Origin: Eledone cirrhosa
Lineage: Eukaryota
Assembly (NCBI GenBank): GCA_964016885.1
Contig: OZ024750.1
Span: 496,001 to 560,000, forward strand
DNA: 64,000 bases
Direction: 5' to 3'
Part shown: positions 13,823 through 53,840 of the stretch, piece by piece
How the letters are laid out: each line of letters begins with the position of its first letter
Numbering within the stretch: the stretch's first letter is position 1
Notes under the pieces: generated by a model
Databases searched by the model: none
What the model was told of the DNA's origin: nothing
Seen by the model: the letters and a program-made list of their open reading frames with translations, nothing else
Program-made: the position numbers and the translations under genes

Positions 13823-13825
13823 ACA

Positions 13826-29849: not shown

Positions 29850-30963
29850 TTGGAAATGGCCATGCTCAGTGTGAAGGAAAGGAGTAGGCATAAATTCCAT
29901 TTTATGTCCCAAATGCAAAGTATGGGTACATAAAAGATGTAGTGGGATCACAGGTAAACTATCTAAGAACGTAGACTTTATATGTGGCCAATGCTCAAGT
30001 GCAATAAGTAGCAAGTGTCCAAAGGATACTAGCTCCTTCTATTGCCCAGATGGTTCTATAGAAATAGTAGACACTTTCCGTTACCTGGGTGACGAAATCA
30101 GCAGTGGTGGAGGGTCTTCTGAAAGTACAGTAGCCAGAGTCAGCACGGGATGGAAAAAGTTCAGAGAGCTTATACCGCTGTTGGCCACAAAAGGTTTCTC
30201 TCTAAAAATGAAAGGCAGATTGTATGATGCCTGTATACGAACAGCAATGCTACATGGCAGTGAGACATGGGCATTACGTGCAGAGGACCTGCGTAGGCTG
30301 GAAAGGAACGAAGCATGCATGCTCCGTTGGATGTGTAATAGTAATATACGTGAACGGCAAAGCATAAATGAACTAAGTGAGAAATTAGGAATAAGAGGGA
30401 TCAGATGCTGTTTACTTGAGAGAAGACTACGTTGGTATGGTCACGTGATGCGCATGAAAAAGTGCAGGGCGATCAAAATTGATGGTAGTTTCAGAGTAGG
30501 TAGACCCAGAAAAACCTGGGATGATCTGATAAATTCCGACCTTACACACTTACACCTCTCTAAGACCGAGATCTTTGGTGCTACGCAGTAATACAGAAGA
30601 CCCGCCTTGCCTATGTACAAAGCGAAACCTACAGCCAGTAGGCACCTCTTAACCAAATATACATCCCAATCCACTACCCCTACCCTATCCTCCCACTCCC
30701 ACCAACAGCACGAGATAATGCGATCGAGATCGTGTAGGAGTCACGACAAAACACACAGTCCACGCTGTAATGTGGCCGTGTAGGTAACATGGTAAAAAGT
30801 TCCCAGTTCCACACTGTAAATGTGGTTGGTGTTAGGAAGGGCATCCAGCCGTAGAAAACCTGCCAGATAGTCCTATATGAGCGAGACACGGTCACCCGAC
30901 CAACCTTGCCTCAAACAACTCCCGTCTAACCCATGCTAGCGTGGAAAATGGACGTTAAACGAA

Positions 30964-30995
<32 letters not shown>
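29850..30995 (+). mobile_element. 5'-truncated RTE-clade LINE (PHD-like finger, RT C-terminus, 3' UTR, (GAT)n tail)
   Basis: WPCSV*RKGVGINSILCPKCKVWVHKRCSG...CGQC, then YLG...GWKKFREL...LHGSETW...RRLRWYGHVMR...GRPRKTW. Confidence 0.9.
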
Positions 30996-30997
<2 letters not shown>

Positions 30998-31260
30998 GGT
31001 GTGTGTACATTTGTATGTACATCTGTGTATGTATATATGAATATGTGTATCTCTGTGACGACAATGATGATAATGATGATGATAACAGCCATGTCTGCAT
31101 TTTACTATGTCTGAAAAAAAGACAGGATGATCATAGCTAATCAGAGAGTTGATCTTGATTAGGGCTGATAAGTGATTAATCCTTTTAATACCAAACTGCC
31201 TGAAACTAACCTTGATTCCATTATTTTAAATATTTATCTGGAAACCTTCAATTATAAGAA

Positions 31261-31420
31261 CATTCCCGGATTTAGGACAAATGAGGCCCTGTGCTGGTTA
31301 AATTAGGAGACCCCTTACTTGGGCCCTGAAGGTGGTAAAAACATTTTTTGTCAAGAAGATGGGCCCTGCTGGCCCATGGAGCCCTGTACACACCTAAGCA
31401 AAATGGTAAATCTGGCACTG
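31261..31420. mobile_element. hAT MITE (160 bp) with 8-bp TSD
   Basis: TSD tataagaa at 31253-31260 and 31421-31428; imperfect TIR cattcccggattta / taaatctggcactg. Confidence 0.8.
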
Positions 31421-33227
31421 TATAAGAACCTTTGTTAAGTTATGTTACAAAAACCAGTTTAATAATGAGAAAGTTAGTTATATTCCTAAATCCCTCTAAA
31501 TTCTTGATTATTTTCAAAATTATTTGAAATAAAATAGCACTTGTCATGAGAACTGTGGCAACAAAAGGATTAAACAACAACAACAGCAATAACAACAACA
31601 ACAGTGACAGCAGCAACAGCGACAGCAACAGTAGAATTTCTATGATAACTTTAAAAAGGAAAATAGAATCTGTGTGAATATCATCTGAACAACTCAGAAA
31701 AAAAGGTTGTTTTCTAACAAAGACATTTTCTGTGTGCCAAACATTTTTTTATGTGGCTTTTGAAAAGAAGTTGTGATGAAGAAAATATTTTATTTTTAAA
31801 TATTACAAGAAAAGAAAAAAATAATGGAGGCCATGCAAAAGACATAATGATGGAAGAAAAAGAAGCTTCTAATAATAAGATATAATAAGATATACTGGTG
31901 AAATATAATATGCAAAACATATGTTATTTGTCTAGAGAATGTTGAGCTAAAGAGAACAAGAGCAAATAAAGTTGTTACAAGGTTCTAAAAATGTAACTAT
32001 GGAGCTTTTAAAGTTAAAAACCATTTGTATGTTGTGTATATGAAGTTAAATAACCAATAATATTTCTGGGGGTTATGGTGGGGGGGGGGGGGGAAGAGGC
32101 AACAACAACAACAACAACAGCAACAAGAATATAAGAAAGTTGCGAGCCACCAGCCTGACTGAACACTCGATAGGGTGCAGGAGTATATGTAAGGGAGAGG
32201 AAACCCTATCTTGGGGTCAGCAGCCTTGAATACCAACCTAGTCTGTGGATGACCAGTCTCTGTTAGCAAGGAAAGTGATTGTTAAATGATGGTTATGGTG
32301 ATGATGGTGATGATGATGGTGATGGTTATGACAATGATCTGTTTTTCTTACAGTATTTCTATGAGTTTCAAATGAATACGGCCTTCAAAACAGCAGGAGT
32401 TTAGTAGGAATTGTGAAACTAAAACTATATTCTAAAAAACACTTTAAACATTTTAAATATTAAAATATTAAAACTTCACAAGTATATTCTCCACTCATGA
32501 GAATTTCAACACCACATTATCTAAACATGTTAATTAGCTGCCTTGGTTTATACACAGAGTTGGATTTTTACCTATTTCTCAGACATAAAATGGGGGGGGG
32601 GGGGGGGGGGGGCTTATATTTGAGTATATACGATAGTTCTTGGAAAAGGTGAACAGATGTTCAAGAGTGAAGTATTTCTCATTTTAAAGAAACCACACAC
32701 ACACACACACACACACACTCATACATACAATTAAATATTGTCTTTTATTTAAATTACAAAACTGCAGTTCTGTGAGTAGCAACCATTATTAGATTGATTT
32801 CACTTGATTCAACCAATTTCAGTTTTCTATAAATTGGAATGAGAGTTACATAAAAGATCAATCAATGTATATTGGAATTCAATAGTAGAAATATTTTACC
32901 AAAATTAACCTCTCCCTAATTAAACTACAATATTAATTAAATCATTACATTCTTCATATATTTCTCTCTAATTAATTAGTTCTTCTGACTTGTTAACAAT
33001 ACTGAATATGTTTTCATTTTTTTCTTAATTATTTAAGCAATTAGTAAAGAAATGTTGATAGTGCCAATTCACAGAATTTCAGTAATAATTTACCTCTGTG
33101 AGACCACACAGGTAAAAATTCCAAAATGATTAATTAGTAAAATAGGAAAGAAGATGATTATAATTGATATTATATCTTAATGACAAAAAGAAAGAAAAAG
33201 ACAAAGAAAAAGAATAAAAAGGGGAAG

Positions 33228-33428
33228 ACGAAGGTCGGCTGAAAAGTTCATAGGTTGACTATGAAGGAGTGATGCTAGAGCTGTGAAATCTTGTGTGCAT
33301 TAATTTCAACTCTTCTTATTAATAACTGTATTGTTTCTTTCCAGGAACTATGTTGAAAAATAAATCTCATTTGGTCATTCCATGAGAATATCTTGGTCAG
33401 TCTATGAACTTTACAGCCAGCCCTTGTA
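33228..33428 (+). mobile_element. Mariner-derived MITE
   Basis: Same family as 8892-9072. Confidence 0.85.
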
Positions 33429-33768
33429 TCTCAGCTACACTCTACAGATACAATTGTGAAAGTGTTGCTGAGGAGAACAGCCAGCAATAGCCGCTACATT
33501 AGTCATTTCACCCCCGTAGTGCTCCTTTCTCAGGTATGATGCTCTTGTTCTACTTTAGAAGAGGACAATGGAAGTGTGGAGACTGAGGACAAGAAAAGTC
33601 TCAATGATGAAATAACAAAATGATAAAAGTGTCTGGTTCTAAATATGGTAATGGGTAGATCAATCAGTTTGGCCAATAGATCAGAAAGATAGATGGAAAT
33701 TAGTATTGTGATGAGGAGAAAATTAGTGACTAAGCTACAAAAATCTCCTTTGTAATATGACTAGAAGT

Positions 33769-34380
33769 GGAGGCATGTGGCCTAGTGGTTAGGATGTTAC
33801 AATTATAATGCCATGGGTTTGATTCCTGGACTGGTTGTGTGTTATGTTCTTAAGCAAACCATTTCATTTTACATATGGAGGTACTTGGCTTAGTGGTTAG
33901 AGCATTGGCCTTGCAATCGAAAGGTTGTGAGTTCAATTCTCAGACCAGGTGATGTGTTGTTTCCTTGAGCAAGACACTTTATTTCACATTGCTCCAGTTT
34001 ACTCAGCTGTAGAAATGAGATGATAGGGACTGGGGTCCCTATCATTCCACTGCAAAGTGGTCGTGGAGGTACCACGGCAAAAAAGCACCCAGCACTCACT
34101 GTAAATGAGGTTGGTGTTAGGAAGGGCATCCAGCTGTAGAAATCAAGCCAGAATCAGCTTCCGTCCCACCATTGCAAGCAGGGAAAAGCGGACGTAAAAT
34201 GATGATGATGATTGCTCCAGTAGACTCAGTTGAAAATGAGTACCAGTAATAGCTGGAGATTTAACTCTGTGATGTACTGGTGTCCTGTCCAGGGGGAAGT
34301 CTTGTAATCTCAGTCACTTAACGCCACAGAAACAGGGTAGACATCGGCCTGATGTACCTCAGGGCTTCAGATAGAATATG
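33769..34380 (+). mobile_element. Nested tRNA-SINEs: an RTE-tailed SINE (33877-34211) inside a family B SINE
   Basis: Two tRNA heads (tggcctagtggttag...gttYgattcc). The inner copy ends with (gat)n and the outer resumes at ttgctccagt. Confidence 0.8.
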
Positions 34381-35828
34381 ACTTTTGATACCAAACCACC
34401 TGAAACCATCCTGGATTTATGACACAAAACTGCTAATATGTAAAATATTTATCCTTATATTGAAATGTTCCATCATAATTTTATTTAGAATTTTTTGTTA
34501 AATAAAATTATAAATATCAGCTTGCTAACGAAAAACTTACGTATATTAAATTCCTTGAAAATTATAGATTGTGTCTTTCATTGGAAATAAGGTAATGATA
34601 GAGTTAAACAAACATACTGTGGGGAAATAATATTAATTTATGCAAGCTGTGATTCTAAAGGAGAGAGGGGGATAGGGGAGAGAGAGAGATAAGAGGGGGG
34701 TAAGGAGAGAGAGAGATAAGAAGGGGGTAAGGAGAGAGAGAGAGAGATAAGAGGGGGGTAAGGGGAGAGAGAGGGGGAAGAAGGAGAGACATACATACAG
34801 AAGAAAGAAAGAATTAGATTAAGGTAAGTTGTTTTAAATGTTTCAAATTGATTCAAAGAGATTTGTTGTTAAGCAGACAAAACCAATTCCAATAATGATT
34901 TAGAAATAGATTTGTTCATTTTGCTATTTTGAAACCTTCTTCATCTTATAAAAACTCAGCCTAAATAACTTATTCCAAATATAACTTGTTCCTTTCTTCA
35001 TTGGCAATTTTATGTGAGATTGTGTGTCAAAACTAAAACAAATGCACCTTGCTAAACTTATTCATTTTACTCATTTAAAACAAAATATTTATTATTTTTT
35101 ATTTATTATTTTATTCATATTTCATTTATTTATTTATTATTTTATTTATTATTTATTTATTGTTTGTTATTTGCAATAGTATAGATATATCATTAAGATG
35201 TCTTTCATGGTAAAAATGATTAACATTTCGGTCACTTCAACATATTGTCAGAAATCAGATAGTATAGGCTGTTATAGACATTTTTTATTACTATTGGGAA
35301 TTTAGTCTTGCTATTTCATATTTTCCTCTTCTCTCCATTTTTCTCTCCTGTACACACACACTCTCTCTCCTGTACACACTCTCTCTCTCACTCACACCCT
35401 CTCTCTCTCTCCTGTACACACTCTCTCTCACTCACTCCCTCCCCTGTACACACTCTCTCTCTCTCACTCACTCCCTCTCTCTCTCCTGTACACACTCTCT
35501 CTCACTCACTCACTCCCTCTCTCTCTCTCCTGTGCACACACATTCTCTCTCTCTAATTCTACTCCCATTATAACCATCTCTCGCATCTTTTCGTTCTTCC
35601 TCTTCTACAACAATCTTAAACACAAAGGTAGACTGAAAAGTTCATAGGCTGACTAGTGATGCTAGAGCTGTGAAATCTTGCATGCATTGGACAGAAAGAC
35701 AGATACAAAAGTGTTAATAACCAAAGAAGTAGTTACAAGAATGGTGAATAGAGCAGTGAAGTAGATTAGGTGGCAATTGTAGAATTTAACCGTTTTCATA
35801 CTAAAGCACATGAAGCCACCCCTGCTTC

Positions 35829-36965
35829 TATGATACAGCAATGTCTGATAGACAACAATGATACAGCAATGTCTGATAGACAACAATGATACAGCAATGT
35901 CTGATAGACAACAATGATACAGCAATGTCTAATAGACAACAATGATACAGCAATGTCTGATAGACAACAAGATACAGCAATGTCTGATAGACAACAATGA
36001 TACAGCAATGTGTAATAGACAACAATGATACAGCAATGTCTAATAGACAACAATGATACAGCAATGTCTGATAGACAACAATGATACAGCAATGTCTGAT
36101 AGACAACAATGATACAGCAATGTCTAATAGACAACAATGATACAGCAATGTCTGATAGACAACAATGATACAGCAATGTCTGATAGACAACAATGATACA
36201 GCAATGTGTAATAGACAACAATGATACAGCAATGTCTAATAGACAACAATGATACAGCAATGTCTGATAGACAACAATGATACAGCAATGTCTGATAGAC
36301 AACAATGATACAGCAATGTCTAATAGACAACAATGATACAGCAATGTCTGATAGACAACAATGATACAGCAATGTCTGATAGACAATGATACAGCAATGT
36401 CTGATAGACAACAATGATACAGCAATGTGTAATAGACAACAATGATACAGCAATGTGTAATAGACAACAATGATACAGCAATGTCTGATAGACAACAATG
36501 ATACAGCAATGTCTGATATACAACAATGATACAGCAATGTCTGATAGACAACAATGATACAGCAATGTCTAATAGACAACAATGATACAGCAATGTCTGA
36601 TAGACAACAATGATACAGCAATGTCTGATAGACAACAATGATACAGCAATGTCTAATAGACAACAATGATACAGCAATGTCTGATAGACAACAATGATAC
36701 AGTAATGTCTGATAGACAACAATGATACAGCAATGTCTGATAGACAACAATGATACAGCAATGTCTAATAGACAACAATGATACAGCAATGTCTAATAGA
36801 CAACAATGATACAGCAATGTCTGATAGACAACAATGATACAGCAATGTCTGAAAGACAACAATGATACAGCAATGTCTAATAGACAACAATGATACAGCA
36901 ATGTGTAATAGACAACAATGATACAGCAATGTCTGATAGACAACAATGATACAGCAATGTCTAAT
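35829..36965. repeat. 28-bp minisatellite (atgatacagcaatgtctRatagacaaca)n, about 40 units
   Basis: Read directly from the sequence. Confidence 0.97.
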
Positions 36966-37485
36966 ATACCGGTATATGAAGTATATCAAAGGTAATTGTT
37001 ATTTCAACTTTGAATGCATGTTAACAGTTGGTTTTTACTATGAAAAATAGTTAGGTATGTAAGTCCCTAGGGAGGGAAAATAGTGGACAGTGTTGCCTGT
37101 GGTACTCAAACTCACAGCAAGTGATGCTGTCCCTGTTTTTCTATCTCTAGGGGTTTATATATCCAACTTGTTTGGCTTTTCATAGTGAAATAAACCTCTG
37201 CTGAAACAACATACATTCAAAATTCATAATTTGTTCGACGCTTCATTAAAATATGATTGATTCATATTTTAATTAAATGTTTACAATCAAATCATTTCAG
37301 CAGGCTTACTGTTCTGTTAAGAGGATAAATATCCTGCCACTTATCTATTATTTGCAGCACCACAGAAGGTGTTTCTATGTTGTTTATATAAGACAAATCA
37401 GCCTAAGGGAGAAGATAAACATAAAAATATTTGAGCTTAATGACAAGCTGGCAAAGCTGATATCAATTATAATACTCCAGCTGTT

Positions 37486-37770
37486 GACAGTGGACAGTGG
37501 ACATTGACACCTGTTTAGGATTAGGTTGACAGTGGACATTGACACCTGTTTAGGATTAAGTGGACAGTGGACATTGACACCTGTTTAGGATTAAGTGGAC
37601 AGTGGACATTGACACCTGTTTAGGATTAAGTGGACAGTGGACATTGACACCTGTTTAGGATTAAGTGGACAGTGGACATTGACACCTGTTTAGGATTAAG
37701 TGGACAGTGGACATTGACACCTGTTTAGGATTAAGTGGACAGTGGACATTGACACCTGTTTAGGATTAGG
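37486..37770. repeat. 35-bp minisatellite x8
   Basis: Unit tggacagtggacattgacacctgtttaggattaag. Confidence 0.95.
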
Positions 37771-37942
37771 TGAACTCGACTATTGTTTTATCCATCAGGC
37801 TTAAAAATATTGAACATAAAATATTTCAATCTCTATATTGAGAAATAGAAACAACTGAGAGAAGTTAAGGAAGTCTGTGTAGCTATGCCAAGAGGTTAAA
37901 ACTTCACTTCATTACCCCATGGTTGCATGTTGAATCTCTGTA

Positions 37943-38144
37943 TATGAGGGTAGGCAGAAAGGTTTATAGGCTGACTATGAAGGAATGATGCTAGAGCAGT
38001 GAAATCTTGCATGCATTAATTTCAACTCTTCTTATTAATAACTGCATTGTTTCCTTCTGAGGACTATGTTGAAAAATGAACCTCATTTGGTCATTCCATG
38101 AGAGTATCTTGGTCAGTCTCTGAACTTTTCAGCTGACCCTTGTA
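37943..38144 (+). mobile_element. Mariner-derived MITE
   Basis: TIRs with TA flanks. Confidence 0.85.
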
Positions 38145-38226
38145 TATAAAAAGAACTTCATTTTCAAATATAAAAACTGGAAAGAAGAAAGTAAAGAAAT
38201 TATATCAGCTTAAGGTTCATAATGAA

Positions 38227-38290
<64 letters not shown>

Positions 38291-39506
38291 TTCATTATGT
38301 ATGTTTTGTTGGCCTGGAGAGCCAAACTTTATCAACCTGTGACGGTGGAAATGAACCAGAAATTGTTCCCTTTTTAAATTATTTAGGTCACCATTTAACC
38401 TTTTTTTGGAAAGAGAATGTTTGTGGAAAGTGATGTTTGCTACTAGAATAAAAAAATTTGGATTCAAAAGAAGCGAGGTCATTGACTTGGGGTGGGTATT
38501 TAATTGTTTTCAGGTTAAAAGTATGTATTCACTGTGCCAGATAATGTTCTATTATATACTAATGCCTGTCATATTAGAACTTGCCCTACAGGCTCGAGTT
38601 GCTCTCTACCTTGGATATTTCTACCAAGTTTTTACGACTATATATAATATATTTCTACCATTAAATACCCTCTGTAATGTGTACTTATCTAGTTTCCATG
38701 GTAATTGTTTTATAATGTATGCCCTCTCAGTCAACGCTTTAATTGGAACAATTGACAAGAAACAACTTTCTGTTCACTAGTAATTACTATAAATTTGATA
38801 GTAATGTCACAACAGATCCATGCAAGCTCTAAGGTGCAATTAGAGACTCTATCGCCATCATGCTTGTCAATATAATACTTGGCATGTTATTATTTTTTGT
38901 GTAGTTTCCACAGCTAATAATGCAATTTCGTTTTCCGGTATTATTGATTCGTCTCAAAACTACATTGTTTTCATTATGTTTTTTATTTTATGGAAATAGC
39001 AGCACATCTCCATTACAGTTTACGTCATTGACTTGCTTGTAAATTAGTCATTCTTTTCATGTACATTCTCCATATAGACACAGAACACTATCCATTTAAC
39101 CAACTATCATATGAGCAAGCTTCCGTGTAGGTAGATAGACATTTAACTTGCCAATCTAGCAACTAAATTTCCCTTAACAAACACCCTGCCACTTTTTAAA
39201 TGGATGTCATACATTCAAGTCCTAAATTTTAAGATAACATTTTCCTAATAGACACAGGATGGTCATGTCAAAAATATCGTTTACATAAAGTTTGGCCTAA
39301 ATTGGACAATTAATATTCAGCCAGCTTGCAATAAGGTCATTGCTACACTAGATAAAGTGCAACATATATACTACGATAAACCTGCAGGTCACATAAAATA
39401 GATCTGATTCAGCATGCTAGTAGTGTGGATATATATATAAAGAGAGAGTGTTAGTCTACAAGTCAATAAGTTGTGAGTTCAAATCATGTTATAAGTATAA
39501 ATCTAT

Positions 39507-39652
39507 TTTAACCTTATCACATTTACATTACTCTATATATACTATTTTGATTTTATTTATTTTGAGAACAATACCTTAACGTAAGCATGAGCAACCAGTT
39601 AAGGCTGGTTTGAAGAGAAAGAGGTGAGAGAATTCTGGCCGGATATGGCTGG
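39507..39652 (-). mobile_element. piggyBac-like MITE fragment
   Basis: Matches 18327-18530 with an internal deletion. Confidence 0.7.
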
Positions 39653-39774
39653 TATACTTCTAGAGTTTTCCAATACTTTCAGAGGTTTAATAGAGAGAGA
39701 GAGAGTGTTAGTCTAGAAGTCAACAAGTATAAATGTATTGTCTTTAAACAATGAACAATACATTCTATATATAA

Positions 39775-39975
39775 TAATAATTGTTTCTACTTTAGAGAAA
39801 CACAAGGCCAGCAATTTGAAAGAGAGGGGAAAGTCGATTAAATCAACTCCAGTGCATTACTGGTACTTTATTTTATCGACCATGTATGGATGAAAGGTAA
39901 AGCTAAGCTCGGCAGGATTTGAATTCAGAATGTAAAGGGCCGTAACAATATGCCACAATGCATATGGTACAGTGC
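39775..39975 (-). mobile_element. tRNA-SINE family A copy
   Basis: Matches 1816-2000. Confidence 0.8.
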
Positions 39976-42079
39976 TCTGGTGCACTACAACTCTATACTT
40001 CTAGAATGTTCCAATACTTTCAGAGGTTTTATATAAGATATATAAAACATATCCTAAATAAAACTCATACTTGTGAGCTGTTTGTCAAGAATATATATCC
40101 CCTCAATATAAATGGGAATAATGCAAGATAAAACACTGAAATAGTTTGATAAAGAACGGTAAAAAAAACATGGAATGTTCAGAAAAAACATCATGTTGGA
40201 TTTTTTTTTTGGGGGGGGGGGGGGGTCACGATCTGAAAGGGAGAAAAATTGTGGATTAAAAACATTAAAAAAAAAAATCTTTGAATATTTCAAAACCTGC
40301 ACTAATGGATTCTTTTATTGTCCCAGCTTCCTCCAAGTACAGTCACTATTTTACTCTTTCATTCCCTTTCTTTTATCTTTATTATTTTTTTTGGTAATAT
40401 TTTTTTTACTTTTTACTTCTTTTATTAGCCATCTCTTTCTAATACATTTTTATGCAAACATTTAATTTAGAAATATTAACCTGTATAATCTTGATGCTGT
40501 TGTCAAGTTTTGCGGTTATATTCAACATCTGTTTTTGCATTCTTTCATGGCTTGCTGGATTTGTAATTTACCATCTCTCCATGCATTCACTTTCATTTGC
40601 ATCAACATTTCATTTGTGAAATTCAACATTCTCAGATCTGACAAATTTATTTTCTATGAAGCCTTCCTTTGTATAAATAATTATAGCACAGCTAATGTAT
40701 GTTATGTATGTATGTACCTGTAACAACCAGATGGAGTTATTGGGGTGTTGTTGCGACAATTTTGAGGCCACTTTAAACCTGGTGAAGCATATCTCCTCTC
40801 CAGGTTGGAACATGGCCAATTTCTTCCAGAGAAGGGGGTATTTTATTTATCAACCATGAAAAATATGAAAGACAAAGTTAACTTTGGTAGGATTTGAACT
40901 CAGAACATGGAGAACTGGAACGAATATTTCAAATCATTCTATCTGACGTTTGCCAGTTCCCTGTATACCACATCTAATATTTACTTCCAACTCAGAGTAA
41001 AGACTATCCATGGTGGAGTCTGTAAAGGACACATTAGATAATGTAATCCCAGATAAGATGTAGTAACTCTCTAGAATCAATATAATCCTGCTAGCTTCTT
41101 TTACAATATAATATCAGTGACATTGGAATGGTAAGATATGGGAGGGGTGGAAGGTAGTGCATTTACACTGTTACACTTCATTGCAACATGTGCACATGTG
41201 TATATACGTGTGTGTATGCGTGTGTGATATATGTGTGTGTGTATGTGTGTGTATGCATACTATTACATTTCAATGCAACACACATACATGCTTGTATTGC
41301 AGCACACATACACACCTGTATACCTACTATTACACTTCCTATATCTTAGATACTCACACATATTCATACGATCATATCAGCAGGTATACACACCCATACA
41401 GTTACTTATACACATATATACACATACAAACTTTATTTTATCATACTCATACACACAGTTACTTATACACATATACATACATATATACACATAGAAACTT
41501 TAGTTTATCACTCATACATACACATGCACACACTAATATACATATATACAATATTATATATTATATACACATATAATATACACATATACATATATACAAT
41601 ATTATACATACACACAATATTACATATCCACATATATAATATATACACATATACAATATTTTATACAATGTTTATACACTATATATACATGTAGAGTTAT
41701 ATACATGATGCATGCAAATAATACTTTTGCTAAGCAACTGCAACATTATCTGCAGAAGCTGCACAATGGAACTGGTAGTGATGGAACGGCATCACAATAT
41801 TCAGCAGATATGCATGTTTCACGTAAGATTATTATCAGGGCTAATTAAAAAACATTAGAATATAGATTGTGTTTTTATGTTTTGTTCCATACTGGCATGG
41901 GTTGGACGGGAAGATTTGGGGCAATGTTTTACAACTGGATTCAGTCGATTTTATGACACAGAGATATATATAGGGAAAGAGTCAGAACCACGACGAGCTC
42001 AAGCTATTTCAACAGCTATTTCTGGACTGGTACTCTGGTGCATTAAGGTCCACCTGGTTCTTTACCACACTTCATTATA

Positions 42080-42742
42080 TCATCATCATCATCATCATCG
42101 TTTAACGTCCATCTTCCACGCTTGCATGGGTTTGGAAGGGAGTTTTCCCACTTGAGGCAAGAGTGGTTGTCTTGCTTGCATAGGACTGTCTGGCGGGTTT
42201 TCTACGGCTGGATGCCCTTCCTAACACCAACCACGTTTACAGTGTGGACTGGGAGGTTTTTACCGTGTTACCTACACGGCCACATTACAGCGTGGACTGT
42301 GTGTTTTTTTGTCGTGACACCTACACGACCTCATTTGTTTCGGCCTGGATGTTGTGGTACCAACATAACTTTACATTGAAAGAGGTGGTGTGGATGGGGT
42401 GGGGGTAGTGGAACGGGGGTGTATTTTTGTTAGAGGTGCCTACCTACTGTAGTAGGTTTCACTTTGTACTTAGGTAAGGCGGGTCTTCTGTGTAGCGCCA
42501 AAGATCTCGGTCCAGTGACATTGTCTTAGAGAGGTGTAAATGTGTGAGGTCGGAATTTATCAAGTCGTCCCAGGTTTTTCTGGGTCTGCCTACTCCGTGG
42601 CTACCGTCTATTTTTATTGCCCTGCACTTTTTATACAGCTGTCGTCTTTCATGCGCATCACGTGACCGTACCAACGTAGTCTTCTCTCGAGTAAACAACA
42701 TCTGATCCCTCTTATTTCTAATTTTTCCCTTAGTTCGTTTAT
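42080..42742 (-). mobile_element. RTE LINE 3' fragment (same family as 29850-30995)
   Basis: KCRAIKIDGSHGVGRPRKTWDDLINSDLTHLHLSK; same 3' UTR and (gat)n tail. Confidence 0.9.
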
Positions 42743-42894
42743 GCATATATATATGGAATTAGAATTGGTGCTCTGAAATAGCGATGTATACATGAATGTA
42801 TGTATAGTATATTTGGCAATATACAGTATGTTTAATTAAAAACATTTAGAAGACCTTGCGCTATCAGTTTTAAAGTAGTGACTATGTCACTTAT

Positions 42895-42983
42895 TTTCGG
42901 CGAAAGAAGGGAGAGAAGCTGACAGTCTGTTTCACGCTGGTTGGTGTTCATCAGAGCCGCGCACTCCCCTGCTTCCGCCGAAA
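42895..42983 (-). ncRNA. Type I hammerhead ribozyme with long extended stem I
   Basis: Minus strand: tttcggcggaag-c-aggggag-tgcgc-ggct CTGATGA acac-caacca-gcgt GAAA cagactg TC agct-tct-ctccctt-ctttcgccgaaa. G.U pairs favour the minus strand. Confidence 0.75.
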
Positions 42984-43195
42984 GTTATAGAAGCTGGATT
43001 CTTATAGAATTCCAGTAATAATCAGGAGCTGATTATACAGAGCAATTGCTGGTCCAACACAAATTAGGTATTAGGATTGGTGCTCCGAAATAGGACTAGA
43101 ACTGTAGAAGCCATTTCTATATTAAAAATGTATACTCTGCTATGTATTGAGTACCTTACTTACTGTGGTTACCCCCGATTGAACCCGGGATACAC

Positions 43196-43229
<34 letters not shown>

Positions 43230-44087
43230 TTATACATATATATCCATAAAGAGGGAGGGAAAAAGAGGTGAGGAGATGAAAACTAATTGATTTTGTTTCA
43301 CTTGAAACCATCTGTGCATTACTGCCTACCAAAACCAATAAATCCTTTAGATTAGTAGAACCAATACAACACTTTCCCATTAATAAACAGCAATGAATTC
43401 ATAGACTTACCAGATATTCATCACACAACATAACTTTCATGATAATAGTAATTAGTAAGACTTTCATGGTAAATTATACTTCCAACAAAGACAATCTTTT
43501 CCTCAGCAAAATATTTTCCTATAATATAATATACATATATATCGGTGTGTGTGTGTATACATACATACATACACATATATACATACATACACACATATAT
43601 ATATATATATACACACATACATACACACATATATATATACACACATGCATATATATACATTCATACGCACATATATATATATATAAAAATACACATATGT
43701 ATATATGTGTGTGTGTGTGTGTGTGTCTGTGTGTGTGTATTTGGGTGTGTCTGTGCAGGATATCCATAAATAAAAGTGAAGGAAAGCAATGCTCAATCTA
43801 ATGCAAGAGAGTTTATTTAGTATAAATAAAGTTTCATACATTTAACTTATACTCTCAGGTCCCAAATAAAGGAGGTGGGTGGAATAAACAGGGGGGTTGG
43901 GAAATCTGTAATTGTATAGTGTACAGTCGTAACTTCTTGTAATGTTCTTTTTTTTTTCATACATAATATTTTTTAATGTAAATAAAATTATTAGATTCTC
44001 CAGCTGGTAGCCATGACACAGGTGCAAACTAAAGTTGCTGAACAAATCAGAGTTGAGGTAAATTTACATTTTAAAGAATTGCTATAG

Positions 44088-44355
44088 TGGAGGCATGTGG
44101 CTACCTAGTGGTAAGGTGTTGGACCTACAATCATAATGTTCCTGGATTGTGTGTTGTGTTCTGGAGCAAAACACTTCATTTCATGTTGCTCCAATATACT
44201 CAGCTGAAAGTGAGTACCAGTAATAGCTGGAGGTTTAACCCTGTAATGGACTGGTGTCCTCTCCAGGGGAAGTTTTGTACTCTCAGTCACTTCATGTCCC
44301 AGAAACCACGATAAGCACCGGCCTGATGAGCCTCCAGAGTTGAGACAGACTTTAG
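44088..44355 (+). mobile_element. tRNA-SINE family B copy
   Basis: ggaggcatgtggctacctagtggtaagg...ctggagcaaaacacttcatttcatgttgctcc... Confidence 0.8.
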
Positions 44356-44921
44356 ACTTAGGATAAATGGAATGAAAAACATTGTTAATAGCTGTTATAG
44401 AGAGTATCAATGGAGAGGTAGACATCAGATTTCTATAAAATTTTGTTTCACTTTTGAATAAAACAGAATTTCCTGATGGCTTGTTTCATTGTTTCAATAA
44501 CCATTCTGATACCAGCCCATCTGAAACTGCCCCTGGTTTTATGATGCACAACTTGTGTCATAATGTTGCAGTGTATTTCTTCATTAAAAATCTGGCAAGA
44601 GAAGTGTTAACAACATACCTCCATCTTGCAAAGTAAGACTAGCTACAACATCTTTTCACATTCACAGAATGTGAACATAGAACAAATAATACAAAAATTC
44701 AAACAAAAACAAACAATAGTGATGAAAAATCTAATAAATCAAATGAAATAGAATTATGTTGATGCAGGTGTTGTATTTCATTTTCAGATTTGACTTTTGC
44801 AACTTCTTTAATTTTTTCTATTCTTGACATCGTTCTAAATGTCTACCAATAATAAATAGTGAATATGTGTGTATGTGCATGTGTATATACACACACACAC
44901 ACGTTTATGCGTGTGTGTATG

Positions 44922-44968
<47 letters not shown>

Positions 44969-45289
44969 ATACACATATGTTTATGTATATGTACACACAT
45001 CCTAATTTAACACACATTTTTCCATGCTGGCATTAGATATATACATATATATATATTATTTACTTTCTGGAGTTTTATAAAAGTACTTTTGTTTCGAATA
45101 TAATGAAATTTATATTGACAATAAAAGTCCAACTGTAAAAGTCAAGAAAGTAATTAGATTTAACCAGTCTTCTACTGTATGAGGCTGTGATTTAGTTGTC
45201 ATTAAGGTGTTGCATTAAAAACACCTTGCTATTGGTTCCAGCTTGGAGTTTGCCTCTCATCCAGGTTTAAAATTCTTAAGACAGGCAAT

Positions 45290-45724
45290 ATGTCGGGAGT
45301 TAGCCCCGGTCCATGTCAGGCGTTAGCCCCAGTTCATGTCAGGAGTTAGCCCCAGTTCATGTCAGGCGTTAGCCCCAGTTCATGTCAGGCGTTAGCCCCA
45401 GTTCATGTCAGGAGTTAGCCCCAGTTCATGTCAGGCGTTAGCCCCAGTTCATGTCAGGCGTTAGCCCCAGTTCATGTCAGGAGTTAGCCCCGGTCCATGT
45501 CAGGCGTTAGCCCCAGTTCATGTCAGGCGTTAGCCCCAGTTCATGTCAGGAGTTAGCCCCAGTTCATGTCAGGCGTTAGCCCCAGTTCATGTCAGGCGTT
45601 AGCCCCAGTTCATGTCAGGAGTTAGCCCCAGTTCATGTCAGGCGTTAGCCCCAGTTCATGTCAGGAGTTAGCCCCAGTTCATGTCAGGAGTTAGCCCCAG
45701 TTCATGTCAGGAGTTAGCCCCAGT
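45290..45724. repeat. 23-bp minisatellite (ggMgttagccccagttcatgtca)n, about 19 units
   Basis: Read directly from the sequence. Confidence 0.96.
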
Positions 45725-45889
45725 ACATTTCAAGAGTCAGACCCAGTAGAAGTCAGGAGTGAGACCCAGAATATGAGTGGTGTCTTATTAACTCTAAAAT
45801 GAAGAGTAGCAGAGTTGACCTCAGAGCAGAGAGAACCAGAATGAATACCACAAGGCATTCTTTTGAAGCATCTAATGACTCTGCCAATG

Positions 45890-46038
45890 ATTATCTCACA
45901 TAATATCGAATCTATGAGATTTTGATATTACTTATTTTGGGATAACAAAAGTATGAGCAGCCAGTTACAACCAGTTTGAACAGAAAGAGGTGAGGGAATT
46001 CTGGCCGGATATGGCCAGTTTAAATGCTAAAGGGTTAA
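45890..46038 (-). mobile_element. piggyBac-like MITE fragment
   Basis: Ends taaatgctaaaggg-ttaa. Confidence 0.75.
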
Positions 46039-46529
46039 ATGATGATAGAGTTTCATGGCTATTTTTATTTCAAGAAAATTTGGAACTATTTTCAAAGAAG
46101 TTACTTGCAGAAAATATAAAATAGTTTCCGATTGTATACAGTGTGTTGTGTCTATCTCTCTCAGTGTGTTGAAGATGAAATTTAGTTCAAGCTAGAGATA
46201 TATGAGGTAAACAGGATCCACATATTTTGTTGATAAACAAACAAAAAAGATGTCCAGCTGTGATTAGGAGTTCACTTTTACTTTCACGAATGAAACAAAA
46301 ATAAAACATTGCACATGTGTGTGTGTGTGTGTATGTAGATTCACACACACTATGTGTGTGTGTGTGTATATAGATTCACACACACACACACACATGCTTG
46401 CACAGACCTACACAGACACATATACATATAAGTTGTTACTGATAGCTATGAATAATTCTAAATCTTGGATTCATGTTGGCAACAAATCTCTGCAGATATA
46501 ATAGTACCTCAAAATAGAAAAGAATAATA

Positions 46530-47040
46530 TACAAGGTTTGTCCTAAAAGTAAGGGTACTGGTGTGTTATTTACATGTATATCAGACATACATGAAATTAC
46601 AAGTTTTCTCCTTCAAAATATCACCCTTGGGAAGTCATACAGTGGTTCTCACATTCTTCCATTTAATGTAGCAATACTGGAAGCCATTTTCTGTGAGTGT
46701 CCTTAGCTCATCAGTTACAATTTTTTGTATGTTTTTCACAGTCCCAAAATGATGACCCTTCAACTTTGATTTCAACTTAGGGAAAAGGTAGAAATCACAT
46801 GAAAGTAGATCTGGGCTATAGGGAGGATATGGAAGACTGGGAATGTCTTTCTTTGCCAGAAATTCTCTAATTGAAATACTGCATGAGCAAGTACGTTATC
46901 GTGGTGCTGTACCCAAACTCCTGTAATGTCCTTTCCAAACAACAGAAAGATGGACAGTCCCATCTCTTCAGTCAACCTTATGAAATCACTACAGTTTCGG
47001 TTCATTAAGGTTGATACCATTCATTCCAGTACACATTGGG
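46530..47040 (-). pseudogene. Mariner transposase 3' fragment with terminal repeat
   Basis: HHDNVLAH then, after a frameshift, PYPPYSPDLLSCDFYLFPKLKSKLKGHHF (YSPDL motif); end tacaaggtttgtcctaaaagt. Confidence 0.85.
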
Positions 47041-47044
47041 ATAT

Positions 47045-47485
47045 GATATATATGGTAGTGAGACATAGGCAGCAACTGCAGAGGACATGCGACGGCTGGA
47101 GAGAAATGAAGCAAGTATGCTCCATTGGATATGCAATGCCAATGTGCGTGAACAACCAAGCATAGACGAGTTGAGAAAGAAACTGGGTATAAAAGGGATA
47201 AGTTGTGGCGTGCATGAGAGAAGGTTGAGATGGTATGGACATGTGATACGCATGGAGGATGTCCGGTGGGTAAAGAAGTGCCAAGAAATCCCAGTAGAAG
47301 GAAGATGCAGTAGAAGTAGACCACGAAAAACATGAGCGGAGGTGGTGAGAGCAGACCTCAGATCGCTGAAACTCACCGAGGGAGGAGATGCCGAAGGACT
47401 GTGACAAGTGGAGAGATGGTGTGCTGAATAGGACCCGTCCAACCCTTGCAAGCAGGGAAAAGTGGACGTAAAATGATGATGATGA

Positions 47486-47488
<3 letters not shown>
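47045..47488 (+). mobile_element. RTE LINE 3' fragment
   Basis: YGSET...RRLERNEASMLHWIC...RRLRWYGHVIRMED...RPRKT; (gat)n tail. Confidence 0.88.
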
Positions 47489-47524
<36 letters not shown>

Positions 47525-47882
47525 ATCATCATCATTATTTTATGTCCACTTTCCTTGTTAGGAAGAATTGGTTGGGTCTTCACAGACCAAGTCTGTACAA
47601 AAGTGGGGTTAGTGACCTCCCGGATAGGCTAGGAATTCACATCTCTCTTACATATAGTTTCATGTCCTACTAAGTACAGTTTATAATGATTCTAACACAA
47701 GAGAGGTAGTCATGTATTTAACACAACTACAGGGTCCACCCAACCCTTTTTGGCATAGTTTCTACAGCAGGGTGCCCTTTCTATCACTAATCACCCTACA
47801 CATATAATATTGTTTGCTGTCTTGATCATGATGTGTGTGCACAGAAAAATGTTTATTATCAACAAAAAGTATGTGTACTATA

Positions 47883-47913
<31 letters not shown>

Positions 47914-48779
47914 ATGTGTGTGTGTTTGCATGTGAGTGTATATGATATATGTGTGTGAGAGAGAGAATATGTGTGTGTATATGATATATATATGTGTGTG
48001 TGTGAGTGCATGTAAACGGGGAGAGAGAGAAAGAGAGATGATAGGTAGATAAATAGATATAGATGCAACCACAATAAATTGACTGCTTAAATCTTTCACT
48101 AAAAATAGCTCTGACCACTTAAAATAGCGTGCAGGTATCAATTTTATAAAGAAAAAAAAAGAAGAAAAAACAGATTAAATTTTATACTTTACTTATATTT
48201 TTATTCTCATAAAAATATCTATAAGGTTTGTTGTTTAGATATGAAGCAGATTTATTTTACTGAAAATAATCCACATTTCTACAAATATTCTTTATCAGAT
48301 TTTACTAAGTGTACTAAATGTGGGTTGTTTTTCATAAGAAGTTAAAAGGAAAGAAGTCAATTATATCAAGGATTCCACTGGTCTTTCCATTACTAAGCAT
48401 GTTTAACTCTACTTCGGTATTGAGTACTCATTCTCACATCCATCAGTATCACATACATATATATATATACACACACAAGCATATTCATATATGTTTCACT
48501 GAATGTGCACTGTAAATGGGAGAGAAATTGTCTATTATTTATATTGTTTTCACAAAATTTGAAGACAATAGAATTTGAGTCCAATAGAATGTTGGCTGTG
48601 TTGCTTCAACATAACACAGCACAAGTTCACAACCCTCAGCTCTCAAAGCTTATCATTACTTAATATGACTTCAGACTGCTACGTCATTTAGTGTATTCAC
48701 CAGATCTTGTTCTCTAAGACTTTCACTTCTTTCCTAATATAAAACAGAATTTGAAAGGCAGCTACAGTTAAGTAAAGGA

Positions 48780-50378
48780 CAGCTGTTGACTGAACCAGAC
48801 AAAGAGTTCTCTTTGACAAGAATTGAGCTGTGGTAGATAGGAATGGTAGATACAGCAGTTGACTGAACCAGACAAACAGTCTTTCAATAGAATTGAGCTG
48901 TGGTAGATAGGAACAGTAGATAAAGCAGTTGACTGAACCAGACAAACAGTCTTTCAATAGAATTGAGCTGTGGTAGATAGGAACAGTAGATAAAGCAGTT
49001 GACTGAACCAGACAAACAGTCTTTCAATAGAATTGAGCTGTGGTAGATAGGAATGGTAGATAAAGCAGTTGACTGAACCAGACAAACAGTCTTTCAATAG
49101 AATTGAGCTGTGGTAGATAGGAATGGTAGATAAAGCAGTTGACTGAACCAGACAAACAGTCTTTCAATAGAATTGAGCTGTGGTAGATAGGAATGGTAGA
49201 TAAAGCAGTTGACTGAACCAGACAAACAGTCTTTCAATAGAATTTGAGCTGTGGTAGATAGGAATGGTAGATAAAGCAGTTGACTGAACCAGACAAACAG
49301 TCTTTCAATAGAATTGAGCTGTGGTAGATAGGAATGGTAGATAAAGCAGTTGACTGAACCAGACAAACAGTCTTTCAATAGAATTGAGCTGTGGTAGATA
49401 AGAATGGTAGATAAAGCAGTTGACTGAACCAGACAAACAGTCTTTGAATAGAATTGAGCTGTGGTAGATAGGAATGGTAGATAAAGCAGTTGACTGAACC
49501 AGACAAACAGTCTTTCAATAGAATTGAGCTGTGGTAGATAAGAATGGTAGATAAAGCAGTTGACTGAACCAGACAAACAGTCTTTCAATAGAATTGAGCT
49601 GTGGTAGATAGGAATGGTAGATAAAGCAGTTGACTGAACCAGACAAACAGTCTTTCAATAGAATTGAGCTGTGGTAGATAAGAATGGTAGATAAAGCAGT
49701 TGACTGAACCAGACAAACAGTCTTTCAATAGAATTGAGCTGTGGTAGATAGGAATGGTAGATAAAGCAGTTGACTGAACCAGACAAACAGTCTTTCAATA
49801 GAATTGAGCTGTGGTAGATAGGAACAGTAGATAAAGCAGTTGACTGAACCAGACAAACAGTCTTTCAGTAGAATTGAGCTGTGGTAGATAGGAACAGTAG
49901 ATAAAGCAGTTGACTGAACCAGACAAACAGTCTTTCAATAGAATTGAGCTGTGGTAGATAGGAATGGTAGATACAGCAGTTGACTGAACCAGACAAACAG
50001 TCTTTCAATAGAATTGAGCTGTGGTAGATAGGAACAGTAGATAAAGCAGTTGACTGAACCAGACAAACAGTCTTTCAATAGAATTGAGCTGTGGTAGATA
50101 GGAATGGTAGATAAAGCAGTTGACTGAACCAGACAAACAGTCTTTCAATAGAATTGAGCTGTGGTAGATAGGAACAGTAGATAAAGCAGTTGACTGAACC
50201 AGACAAACAGTCTTTCAATAGAATTGAGCTGTGGTAGATAGGAACAGTAGATAAAGCAGTTGACTGAACCAGACAAACAGTCTTTCAATAGAATTGAGCT
50301 GTGGTAGATAGGAATGGTAGATAAAGCAGTTGACTGAACCAGACAAACAGTCTTTCAATAGAATTGAGCTGTGGTAGA
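48780..50378. repeat. 70-bp homogeneous satellite array, about 23 units
   Basis: gactgaacca recurs at 48861, 48931, 49001, 49071 and 49141. Confidence 0.97.
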
Positions 50379-50703
50379 AACCAAGAGTAGTTTGGAGTTA
50401 ATAACAGCTTGGTCAAGCAATAAAAGAGATAATCAAATCAATATAGTTTTTGCCTGTTGTCATGTCATGTTGAACTTAAAACTTTTAGGACACCCTTCAG
50501 ATGTATGGCTTAGGAGCTCGTCAGTTCAAATCCCAGATTGGGTGTTGCATTGTGTTCTTGAGCAACACGCTTCATTTCAAGTTTTTGCCATGCTAGAACT
50601 GAAGCCCCATCATGAAAAGAAACTTCCTATACGATACAACTTTGTAGGAGGCCAGCTAAACCTGCAAAGGTGAGCGTTGTAAATTTCATTCCTTTTTTTT
50701 TGT

Positions 50704-50759
<56 letters not shown>

Positions 50760-51081
50760 CATCATCATTATCCTTGTTTAACCTCAGCTTTCCCTGCTAG
50801 CAACAACTGGATGGGTCTTTATAGACCATATCAGAAGTGAAGCCCCTAACCTCCCAGACAGGTATCTTCCTTATGTACATAATGTGTATACACACACACA
50901 CAAACATAAACCTCACACACGTTTGTATGTGAGGTTTATGTGAAGTTTATGTCTGGTATACTTGTTCAATCAATATCCACAGGAAAGTATGAATTGTGTG
51001 ACTTAAGTGCTTTGTTGTTTTGTAACTATACACTTAGAAACCATGTCACTGGTGTAGACTTAATTGTATATGCCAACTAGC

Positions 51082-51351
51082 CTATATATATATGTGTGTG
51101 TGTGTATAATCACTATATATATATATAGTGTCCCCCAAAATATATACACCTTCAACAGCACAGCATTCTAATCAAAGTGTGTATACATTTTGGGAGGACT
51201 AGATCCCGTTAAAGCTATATATATGTGTGTGTGTGTATAATCACTATATATATATATATAGTGTCCCCCAAAATATATACACCTTCAACAGCACAGCATT
51301 CTAATCAAAGTGTGTATACATTTTGGGAGGACTAGATCCCGTTAAAGCTAT
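51082..51351. repeat. About 134-bp tandem duplication containing a Tc1-like mini-MITE
   Basis: Two near-identical copies differing only in (TA)n lengths. Confidence 0.85.
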
Positions 51352-51381
51352 TCTTTGCTTAAACTTTAATCTGTTATTTTA

Positions 51382-51533
<152 letters not shown>

Positions 51534-52648
51534 TGTGTAAATATTCTTCTGGGTGTGTGTGTGTTCAGCAACTGAGAAATATTAATTTTCAATAATTATC
51601 AGATAATCAAAATAGTGTTACAGAGTTATCGGCCTTGAGCTTAATGAGCAGGTAAAATGACATTTTCTGGATTGTATAAGGAATAGTTTCAAAGTGTCAC
51701 GATGATGATGGTGGTGGTGGTTATGATGATGATGTATATGATACCATATTTTTAATAAATTATTTTGGTTAATAAAAGAAAATAGCGATATGTATTAATA
51801 AAGAACTAAAATTTCCAATTTGTTTTGTTTAGTTTTTTTTTTTAATCCTGAAATGGGCAAAACTTTTTTTCCACTAGTTATTTGTAGAATACTCCAAATC
51901 TTGGAACCCTGTTTGGAACCCATTTTGTTACTCTAAGAAATGGCTATTTGTAAATCGTAGAGACTTAAAACGAATTCCAGGAGTTTATTTTTAAAAAAAG
52001 AAATTTTTTTCATCTAAGAACTGAACCTTATATAGATGAAACCTTATATAGATAAAACATGTTTTTCTTTGTTTTTTTTTGGTAACTCAACCAATAGTGT
52101 AAAAGACAACAGGTGATTGAACAGGTATTAGAAGACCAGAAACAATTCTAGATGTCAAAACAGAAAGAACATAAAAGATTGAAGAAAACAAGGAGATGCA
52201 CTGAAAATTTAAGAACGGTCAATAATTGATTTAAAGAACTGATATTATTAGTTGTAATATATTTATCTCGCACAAAACTAATGAAGAAATCCTAAGATTA
52301 TGGCTGAAAACAAAAAATATGGATTACAATATAATTCTAAAATTGTATACGTAATTTTATCCTAAAAGGTATGTGCAGATAATATATATGAAGAGTTAAT
52401 ATATTTATATAAGACTTTCATAGAAAATATGCAAACTATAATTTATCCATTATGGGTGGAACATATTTTGGGAATAATGCAAAATATTTACTGAATATAG
52501 CATTGGGTCTTTTAAGACTTTGAAACAAGACAGAATATGTTTTAAATTGAAAGAGAAATGTTTTGCTAAAAATATCATAGGAATGTAGAAATATTGTAAA
52601 AGTTCGATTTTATGAGTGAAATACAATATTAATAAGTTAAATTCTTAC

Positions 52649-53840
52649 CATATATATTCCTGTCCACATCTTTGCTTTCATTTACAGGTATATTTCGTCC
52701 AGAATTCCATTTGGACGATGAGTAACGATTTGTATTCTGAGATTCTACAGTAGCTGAGGGTACCTGTTTCATGCGCTGTTTTTGCCATATTTTTAATTCG
52801 TTGAGAATATTGGTTTTGCTTTGGTCTCTTGGTGGCACTTGGGGTGGAGACAAAGAACGTTGGTGTGCATTAGATGCAGGTGTCGGTAAAGATGCCCGAT
52901 CAAGTACAAAAGGCTCTTGTGCTTCAATATTATATTGAAGGTATGTATGGCTCACCTGTCGTGATTGAAGGGGTGGCCTATCGGTAGATCTTGTAAGACA
53001 AGGTAAATGTTGGTTGTTAGAATATTTATCATTAGATACAGAATTGTTTCCTAATCCAGTTCCAACAGAATGAAGGTTGTTATGGTGTCGGCCAGTATCA
53101 TGGTTACTATTAACCGGGATATTGTAATGTGTATTGTTTGGATTGTAATGACTAACTGATGAGTGATGTGCATGACCACCGTTATGGGCAGAAATATTGC
53201 TAGTAGCACTTGCCACACTGTTCTGATGGCCTAACGTAGTGTGCTGACTGCCATGTCGGCCAGTTACGGTCGCTATACCAGTTGCTGGAGTTAAGCTGCT
53301 GTTTAAGACATCCGCCGTAGTGTTGTTGAGATGCCGATTGAAAAACTGACCATTTGTGTTTGGCGAAGGATTTGCTGTACGGCCGTACGGTTCTTGTGAC
53401 CCAGTGAAGTTGATAGGTTTTTCATCAATATAATGGTTTGATTTGTTTTCCTTACCCAAGAAAACCTCATCCTGATCTAATTGCTCAACATCAGAGCTGT
53501 TATGAGAATCATTTATTCTATTTCGCCACAGAACAAGTTTAAGACCGGCTACAAATCTATCAAAATTCAAATAACCGTTCGGAGGTGTGACATTTCTGAG
53601 AGCATCTACAACACCAGGCGGAAGGCCTTTAACACCGTCTTCCTTCCATCGGCTTTCGATATCCAATAATCGAACATAACCACTGTGGTTCTCATCAAGA
53701 ATATCGAAAAGAATTCTCAAAGAAGACACAAACTGTTTGGGAAGATCATCAGTGGTGTTACTATTTTTAAGGCTACATAAAGAAGTATTGCTGTTAATCG
53801 ATTGTTGTTGTTGTTGGTAAGAAGTGAGGATATGAGACAT
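52649..53840 (-). CDS. SAPCD2: SAPCD2-like exon 1 (397 aa + 1 nt): N-terminal EF-hand-like SAPCD2 domain and long N/H/S-rich linker
   Basis: ATG at 53840 in context aaagccATG; LPKQFVSSLRILFDILDENHSGYVRLLDIESRW...GYLNFDRFVAGLKLVL matches the SAPCD2 N-terminus; donor G|gtaaga at 52648. Confidence 0.93.

What the first reader, a model, noticed from the sequence alone, without database searches (positions are those of the whole stretch)
42895..42983. Canonical GUC hammerhead on the sense strand of SAPCD2 intron 1
This is the best-formed HHR in the window: exact CUGAUGA, GAAA and GUC, with a stem I extended by about 19 bp beyond an internal loop that could dock with loop II. It is on the strand of the SAPCD2 pre-mRNA, so activity would cut the 31.6-kb intron co-transcriptionally between 42921 and 42920. 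Stem II has one A.C mismatch.
Basis: partly seen in the sequence, partly recalled or inferred. Interest (0 to 1): 0.7.

Follow-up and report, generated by a model that had tools for sequence, protein, structure and literature searches.

The report
Decayed retrozyme copy in SAPCD2 intron
The hammerhead motif is real and lies on the SAPCD2 strand inside a 31.6-kb intron, but it is one slightly damaged copy of a 312-base repeat present thousands of times in this genome, likely a parasitic self-cutting RNA pasted in by Penelope-type enzymes, and it is predicted to cut poorly on its own, so it is likely an ordinary passenger rather than a control switch for the gene.

Summary
Confirmed: a type I hammerhead on the minus strand (CUGAUGA from 42954, GAAA 42933, cut site 42921/42920, 19-bp outer stem, A.C in stem II), sense to SAPCD2 in a 31,650-nt intron. 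It is not a unique intronic ribozyme. It lies in a 339-nt insertion (43093-42755), one 312-nt unit plus 27 nt, ending in (TA)n. Two 23-mers of the unit have 2,310 and 3,189 exact genome hits (about 6,700 copies estimated). Copies are permuted, often longer than one unit (52 of 95) and often have an inverted arm (42 of 95): the Penelope footprint. Across six subfamilies the stems change in pairs, including C3-G8 to U3-A8 in two lineages, so the fold was selected in the replicating RNA. This copy is decayed: its A.C is a CpG mutation of a G-C pair (156 exact copies paired, 16 mismatched), and its subfamily has a weak 3-bp stem III predicted to need a partner. Verdict: non-LTR retrozyme, new member of a known kind; regulation of SAPCD2 unlikely. 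No RNA data. The scan reported such families before, in this genome and others.

The parts
42755..43093 (-). Retrozyme-like insertion: one 312-nt unit (43093-42782) plus a 27-nt repeat of its start
42895..42983 (-). Type I hammerhead with extended stem I
42948..42954 (-). Core CUGAUGA (C3 at 42954, G8 at 42949)
42934..42947 (-). Stem-loop II; A42945 is a CpG-type change from the family G and leaves an A.C mismatch
42921..42933 (-). GAAA, 3-bp stem III with 3-nt loop (near-palindrome), GUC; predicted cut 42921/42920
42755..42781 (-). 27-nt terminal repeat ('tail' end, one of the two preferred 3' end zones of the family)
42745..42754 (.). (TA)n target next to the 3' end
43094..43186 (+). Abutting piece of a second hammerhead-bearing repeat family: remnant of its inverted arm, then the part downstream of its predicted cut site; no complete core
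52649..53837 (-). SAPCD2 first coding exon (SAPC2_N); start taken from the first Met of the open frame
20999..52648 (-). Host intron, 31,650 nt, GT-AG, inferred from DNA
17135..17263 (-). Suppressor_APC match in a downstream SAPCD2 exon

Best explanation
This is one of thousands of dispersed copies of a 312-nt non-coding, hammerhead-bearing repeat, likely a non-LTR retrozyme copied into (TA)n runs by a Penelope-like enzyme, and this single mutated copy is predicted to be a weak or silent passenger in the SAPCD2 intron. Shown: copy number, permuted and over-unit-length copies, (TA)n ends, inverted arms, paired stem changes between subfamilies, the CpG mutation here. Inferred: rare loci with two cut sites in tandem are transcribed, cut into 312-nt monomers (probably as double hammerheads through the near-palindromic stem III) and closed into circles; a Penelope-type GIY-YIG/RT protein nicks (TA)n, primes at AT-rich spots near unit position 310 or 24-35 and copies round the circle for about 0.2-1.5 turns; copies then decay neutrally. 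One such copy landed sense in this intron.
For: 1,942 candidates, best 40 scored at 94-100% identity. Exact 23-mer hits 2,310 and 3,189, split evenly by strand, controls 0. Of 95 copies picked by a non-ribozyme word: 52 longer than one unit, 42 with an adjacent inverted piece, 3 reaching a second cut site; 64 followed by (TA)n or (CA)n, 29 ending at position 310, 16 at 24-25, 6 at 35. 67 of 99 copies picked downstream run through the cut site, with no pile of 5' ends there (4 of 75 at 170-177). Alignment of 90 distinct rows: 88.3% of cells paired, 18 of 34 pairs changed on both sides, score 0.261 against 0.057-0.097 for slid partners, C3-G8 65 and U3-A8 15. U3-A8 rows are rejected as one clade on the non-ribozyme part (p-AU 0.001). 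The unit folds as a circle at z -6.6 (60 shuffles). GIY-YIG loci with a Zn-finger-like linker are abundant and those seen end in (TA)n. This copy: paired stem II 156 exact copies against 16; stem II probability 0.27 against a median 0.995 in 10 intact subfamily A copies. Models: PMC7229834, PMC8557442, PMC4209133, bioRxiv 2026.07.22.740005.
Against: No RNA, cleavage or circle was observed. No Penelope end homologous to the unit in 20 of 150 scored GIY-YIG loci: the one strong match is a separate two-armed insertion beyond the element's TA end, and one 46-nt match is weak (E 0.002). Long tandem arrays, typical of published retrozymes, were not seen in the loci fetched. An uncut linear multimer fits the ends as well as a circle. 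Covariation counts copies, not events, and the structure was drawn from these sequences; only 18 pairs against 13.8 in shuffles (18 of 500 as high). Folding energies ignore tertiary contacts and Mg2+, and intact subfamily A copies score as badly as this one (median 10.0 against 10.3 kcal/mol), so the model may understate activity.
Confidence: 0.8

Rival explanations
1. The unit is the pseudo-LTR of an autonomous Penelope-like element not yet found, and the copies are 5'-truncated insertions of it.
For: Same footprint of tail, inversion and (TA)n (PMC8557442 passages); bioRxiv 2026.07.22.740005 derives retrozymes from pLTRs.
Against: Upstream of unit position 1 the copies continue into the unit's own end (52 of 95), not into coding sequence; no homology to Penelope 3' ends in 20 GIY-YIG loci. 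Only 20 loci were examined.
Confidence: 0.1
2. Retrozyme origin, but this copy still cuts the nascent SAPCD2 RNA enough to lower mRNA as a tolerated side effect, alone or paired with family RNA from elsewhere.
For: All core letters intact and sense to the gene; about 21.9 kb remain to the acceptor, so there is time to cut; natural-type hammerheads placed in a zebrafish intron lowered mRNA by under 3-fold, an engineered one 20-fold (PMC11856399 passages).
Against: A.C in stem II, 3-bp stem III and a competing fold; 8 of 9 predicted Xenopus dimers did not cut in vitro; axolotl monomers with short stem III cut 6-22% in an hour.
Confidence: 0.12
3. A co-opted regulator of SAPCD2, like the conserved intronic ribozymes of vertebrates.
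For: Sense orientation in a long first coding intron; precedent of the CPEB3 intronic ribozyme (PMC10919898, search listing only).
Against: Young repeat, 3-4% from its subfamily majority; carries a stem-breaking change rather than improved pairing; half of intronic insertions are expected to be sense by chance.
Confidence: 0.03

Closest known systems
Metazoan non-LTR retrozymes (Cervera and de la Pena 2020, PMC7229834, parts 2-4 of 6 read; Li, Clavereau and Pollet 2026, bioRxiv 10.64898/2026.07.22.740005, parts 1-3 of 5 read)
   Same: Non-coding unit in the 150-450-nt range, low GC, one type I hammerhead per unit, self-paired circle, thousands of copies, short stem III, a subfamily with U.U at the base of stem II like axolotl HHR_Amex2.
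   Different: Almost all sampled copies are 0.2-1.5 units with one hammerhead, dispersed, not arrays; (TA)n target, paired ends and inverted arms; no matching pLTR found; expression untested.
Insertion unit of endonuclease-positive Penelope-like elements (Craig et al. 2021, PMC8557442, passages read)
   Same: 5' truncation, partial tandems, adjacent inverted copy, 30-40-bp tail at one end, (TA)n preference.
   Different: No RT or endonuclease frame in the unit; the hammerhead is a full-size type I with a long stem I, not a minimal one.
Dimer-dependent type I hammerheads of animals (Cervera and de la Pena 2014, PMC4209133, part 1 of 4 read)
   Same: Short stem III with palindromic loop; U3-A8 core variant.
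   Different: Stem III length varies between subfamilies here (9 to 12 nt), with perfect palindromes in two of them.
Intronic hammerhead HH9 of amniotes (Rfam RF02275)
   Same: Type I layout, similar loop II and internal loop, intronic sense position (alignment).
   Different: 17.6 bits against a cut-off of 52; HH9 is recalled as single-copy and deeply conserved, this is a young high-copy repeat.

Membership tests
Type I hammerhead ribozyme | Conserved core CUGANGA, GAAA, NUH around three stems | tested here: met
   family core intact in 54 of 91 rows
Type I hammerhead ribozyme | Stems kept by compensatory change | tested here: met
   stem III pairs do not covary, only its length changes
Type I hammerhead ribozyme | Score above an Rfam gathering threshold | tested here: not met
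   (HH9 17.6 of 52 bits)
Type I hammerhead ribozyme | Self-cleavage | not testable with these tools
   predicted weak for this copy
Non-LTR retrozyme | Non-coding unit of 150-450 nt with one type I hammerhead | tested here: met
   312-nt unit; no frame of 110 aa over it
Non-LTR retrozyme | Tandem, head-to-tail arrangement with two hammerheads | tested here: inconclusive
   partial tandem in 52 of 95, a second cut site in 3 of 95; this copy has one; no long array seen
Non-LTR retrozyme | Many genomic copies, no LTR structure | tested here: met
   permuted ends
Non-LTR retrozyme | Expressed as monomeric linear and circular RNA | not testable with these tools
   no RNA holder listed
Penelope-mobilised element | 5' truncation, inverted arm, 30-40-nt tail, microsatellite target | tested here: met
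   of 8 two-armed loci, 4 pair an end at 302-310 with one at 24-26 and the other 4 do not
Penelope-mobilised element | Sequence shared with the end of an autonomous element | tested here: not met
   20 GIY-YIG loci examined of 150 scored
Conserved intronic regulatory ribozyme (HH9, CPEB3 kind) | Single copy | tested here: not met
Conserved intronic regulatory ribozyme (HH9, CPEB3 kind) | Conserved at the orthologous site across species | not testable with these tools
   the genome has no relatives in the search tool

The most novel reading that the evidence does not exclude
The family is a fossil record of a replicating RNA tuning its own ribozyme: the hammerhead hairpin has diverged several times faster than the rest of the unit while keeping its pairs, U3-A8 arose twice, and about half of all copies (50 of 91) come from lineages whose short stem III lets the core fold shut. 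Attenuated, partner-dependent ribozymes would then have been favoured because they keep circles intact for copying and spare the host introns they land in, and family RNA could switch on cutting of thousands of intronic copies such as this one in trans.
Probability: 0.1. Interest if true: 0.6.

Novelty: new member of a known kind. Interest (0 to 1): 0.18.

Why it matters
As a SAPCD2 switch it would be a rare natural case of a ribozyme throttling a host gene, but the evidence points to a passenger. The family has modest value: roughly 3,400 copies with the whole hairpin (rough estimate) in six subfamilies form a natural mutation panel for hammerhead activity, and allow a direct test of whether sense intronic copies are purged or weakened.

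Tried and rejected
Rfam at gathering score found only a tRNA-like match at 33880. A Pfam accession I recalled for Penelope proteins is not in the library; GIY-YIG was used instead. A-to-I editing scars: none; in the hairpin A>G 60 of 1,977 against T>C 62 of 1,921. Linear monomer starting at the cut site as template: no pile of 5' ends there (the excess at unit 178-203 is partly an artefact of aligning diverged subfamilies to this copy). Shared changes between the two arms of one locus: 24 shared against 95 differences in 8 loci, so most divergence is after insertion. Selection on the core after insertion: none seen; in 25 copies picked by a non-ribozyme part the core differed at 27 of 298 sites against 252 of 4,215 elsewhere, though this mixes subfamilies. 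The forced folds for subfamilies C, D and E used wrong offsets and are replaced. No RNA holder listed; contigs of two unlabelled runs laid on the stretch were swamped by other copies and said nothing on expression or an empty allele. Splicing of the intron was not confirmed from reads. A sequence look-up in earlier findings gave nothing. Paper searches for octopus with retrozyme, with hammerhead ribozyme, and with hammerhead plus Penelope listed no paper on this family by title or abstract; the taxon in those searches was my guess, and supplements of PMC7229834 and PMC8557442 were not read and may list it.

Full report
Observation. On the minus strand CUGAUGA starts at 42954, GAAA at 42933 and C17 is 42921. 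Stem II has the stated A.C, and the outer stem I has 19 pairs around one bulge (read from the sequence). Stem III is only 3 pairs with a 3-nt loop. The strand folds well (z -4.5), but the lowest fold pairs the core CUG with stem III letters instead of forming the hammerhead. Rfam gives HH9 at E 0.12 only, and a loose descriptor finds 3 motifs in the window against 0.9 in 30 shuffles, so the reality of the motif rests on the family, not on the single match.

Host gene. A minus-strand frame at 52632-53888 matches SAPC2_N and Suppressor_APC matches at 17135-17263. A GT at 52648 and an AG at 20999 keep the frame and give 31,650 nt. The motif is sense, 9.7 kb after the donor. No RNA evidence was available, so small exons inside cannot be excluded.

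It is a repeat. The 101-nt motif has 1,942 candidates in the 3.0-Gb genome; the 40 scored are 94-100% identical. The window copy spans 43093-42755: a 312-nt unit and 27 nt of its start again, ending in (TA)n. Two 23-mers outside the ribozyme have 2,310 and 3,189 exact hits; 42 of 88 copies keep the second word exactly, which gives about 6,700 copies, about 3,400 with the whole hairpin (rough).

Insertion anatomy. I fetched 90 loci covering 95 of the first 100 listed hits of the upstream word, all on contig C1. Of the 95 copies, 29 end at unit position 310, 16 at 24-25 and 6 at 35, and 64 run into (TA)n or (CA)n. 52 exceed one unit, 42 have an inverted piece at the 5' side, and 3 reach a second cut site. 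In 99 copies picked by the downstream word, 67 run through the cut site and 5' ends do not pile there. The template was therefore continuous across the cut site and past its own start: a circle or an uncut multimer. Truncation, inverted arm, 30-40-nt tail and TA target are the Penelope footprint (PMC8557442 passages). GIY-YIG loci are abundant (150 scored); 18 of 20 translated belong to related families with a Cys-rich linker and the stop just after the nuclease, which fits Neptune or Nematis as described in that paper, and the ends I saw run into (TA)n (the output of 37 was cut). None shares its end with the unit, so the partner is inferred, not identified.

The ribozyme was under selection in the family. 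Ninety copies with the hairpin were aligned with the window copy (5 of 95 lacked it or were cut short). 88.3% of cells pair, 18 of 34 pairs change on both sides, and C3-G8 is U3-A8 in 15 of 90 rows. Six subfamilies, defined by me from stem letters, differ by 4-45% in the hairpin and 2-11% in the downstream body (G has only 4 rows there). On a tree of the non-ribozyme parts (83 rows; 2 of 85 dropped for very long branches) C plus D form one side of a branch (96/85) and the 12 U3-A8 rows are rejected as one clade (p-AU 0.001; bootstrap not settled, recombination not excluded). Stem III stays palindromic or nearly so while its length changes, as in hammerheads that cut as pairs (PMC4209133 part 1); the 11-nt word of this copy pairs with itself at -8.3 kcal/mol and forms no hairpin alone.

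This copy is decayed. The family has G at 42945: 156 exact 34-mers with the paired stem against 16 with the A.C, a CpG-type change. Stem II probability is 0.27 against a median 0.995 in 10 intact subfamily A copies, and the active fold lies 10.3 kcal/mol above the ensemble, rank 37 of 53 core-intact rows; subfamily C has a median of 2.0. Intact A copies are equally blocked in this model (median 10.0), so either the lineage needs a partner or the model understates it. 22 of 91 rows have intact core and stems; this copy is not among them. It is 3-4% from its subfamily majority, in line with other copies at 4-8% for subfamily A and C means, and it is the only copy of the unit in the window.

Effect on SAPCD2. 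Intronic hammerheads can lower mRNA: under 3-fold for N79, N107 and N117 and 20-fold for an engineered one in zebrafish (PMC11856399 passages). Natural short-stem-III monomers cut poorly (PMC7229834), and 8 of 9 predicted Xenopus elements did not cut. A small side effect is possible (about 0.12); co-option is unlikely (0.03).

Comparison and verdict. It works like, and most likely is, a metazoan non-LTR retrozyme with a Penelope footprint. Expression, circles and cleavage are untested, and arrays and a matching pLTR were not found. Earlier notes of this scan describe similar families here and elsewhere; I reached the reading before seeing them, and they are not independent support. The paired-ends idea came from those notes and held in 4 of 8 two-armed loci. 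New member of a known kind; interest 0.18.

Noticed in passing
window 13770-13830 (+): U3-A8 hammerhead motif with 4 of 4 stem II pairs, palindromic stem III and a GUA site, antisense to SAPCD2.
   Followed up: no
window 43094-43186 (+) and 1-155: A second two-armed, TA-targeted repeat family with its own hammerhead; a fragment abuts the 5' end of the finding's element and a palindromic pair lies at the window start.
   Followed up: partly
window 57357-61718 (+): 1,453-aa open frame with endonuclease, RT and zf-RVT domains: a near-intact LINE upstream of and divergent from SAPCD2.
   Followed up: partly
window about 42400-42740 (-), 29875-30591 (+), 47005-47628 (-): 3' fragments of an RTE-like LINE (family named from recall); one lies directly downstream of the element's TA end.
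   Followed up: no
window 33880-33947 (+): tRNA-like match at 30.2 bits, probably a SINE head.
   Followed up: no
L063, L067, L073 (about 500 nt downstream of the GIY-YIG stop): Neptune-like elements carry a U3-A8-type minimal hammerhead-like motif with a CCGG palindrome, end in TTCAT before (AT)n like the commonest end of this family, and L067, L073 and L081 show a tail of about 35 nt beyond the TA run (read by eye).
   Followed up: partly
L119 (both arms): Both inverted arms share a 9-nt deletion in stem I, so the template already carried a damaged hairpin or the arms were homogenised later.
   Followed up: no
L158, L155, L147, L041, L008, L023, L141: Loci with two same-strand passes through the unit; candidates for source loci that could release a monomer.
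   Followed up: no
L067:2711-2754: Weak 46-nt likeness (78%, E 0.002) between the unit's conserved body and sequence next to a tRNA-like SINE.
   Followed up: no
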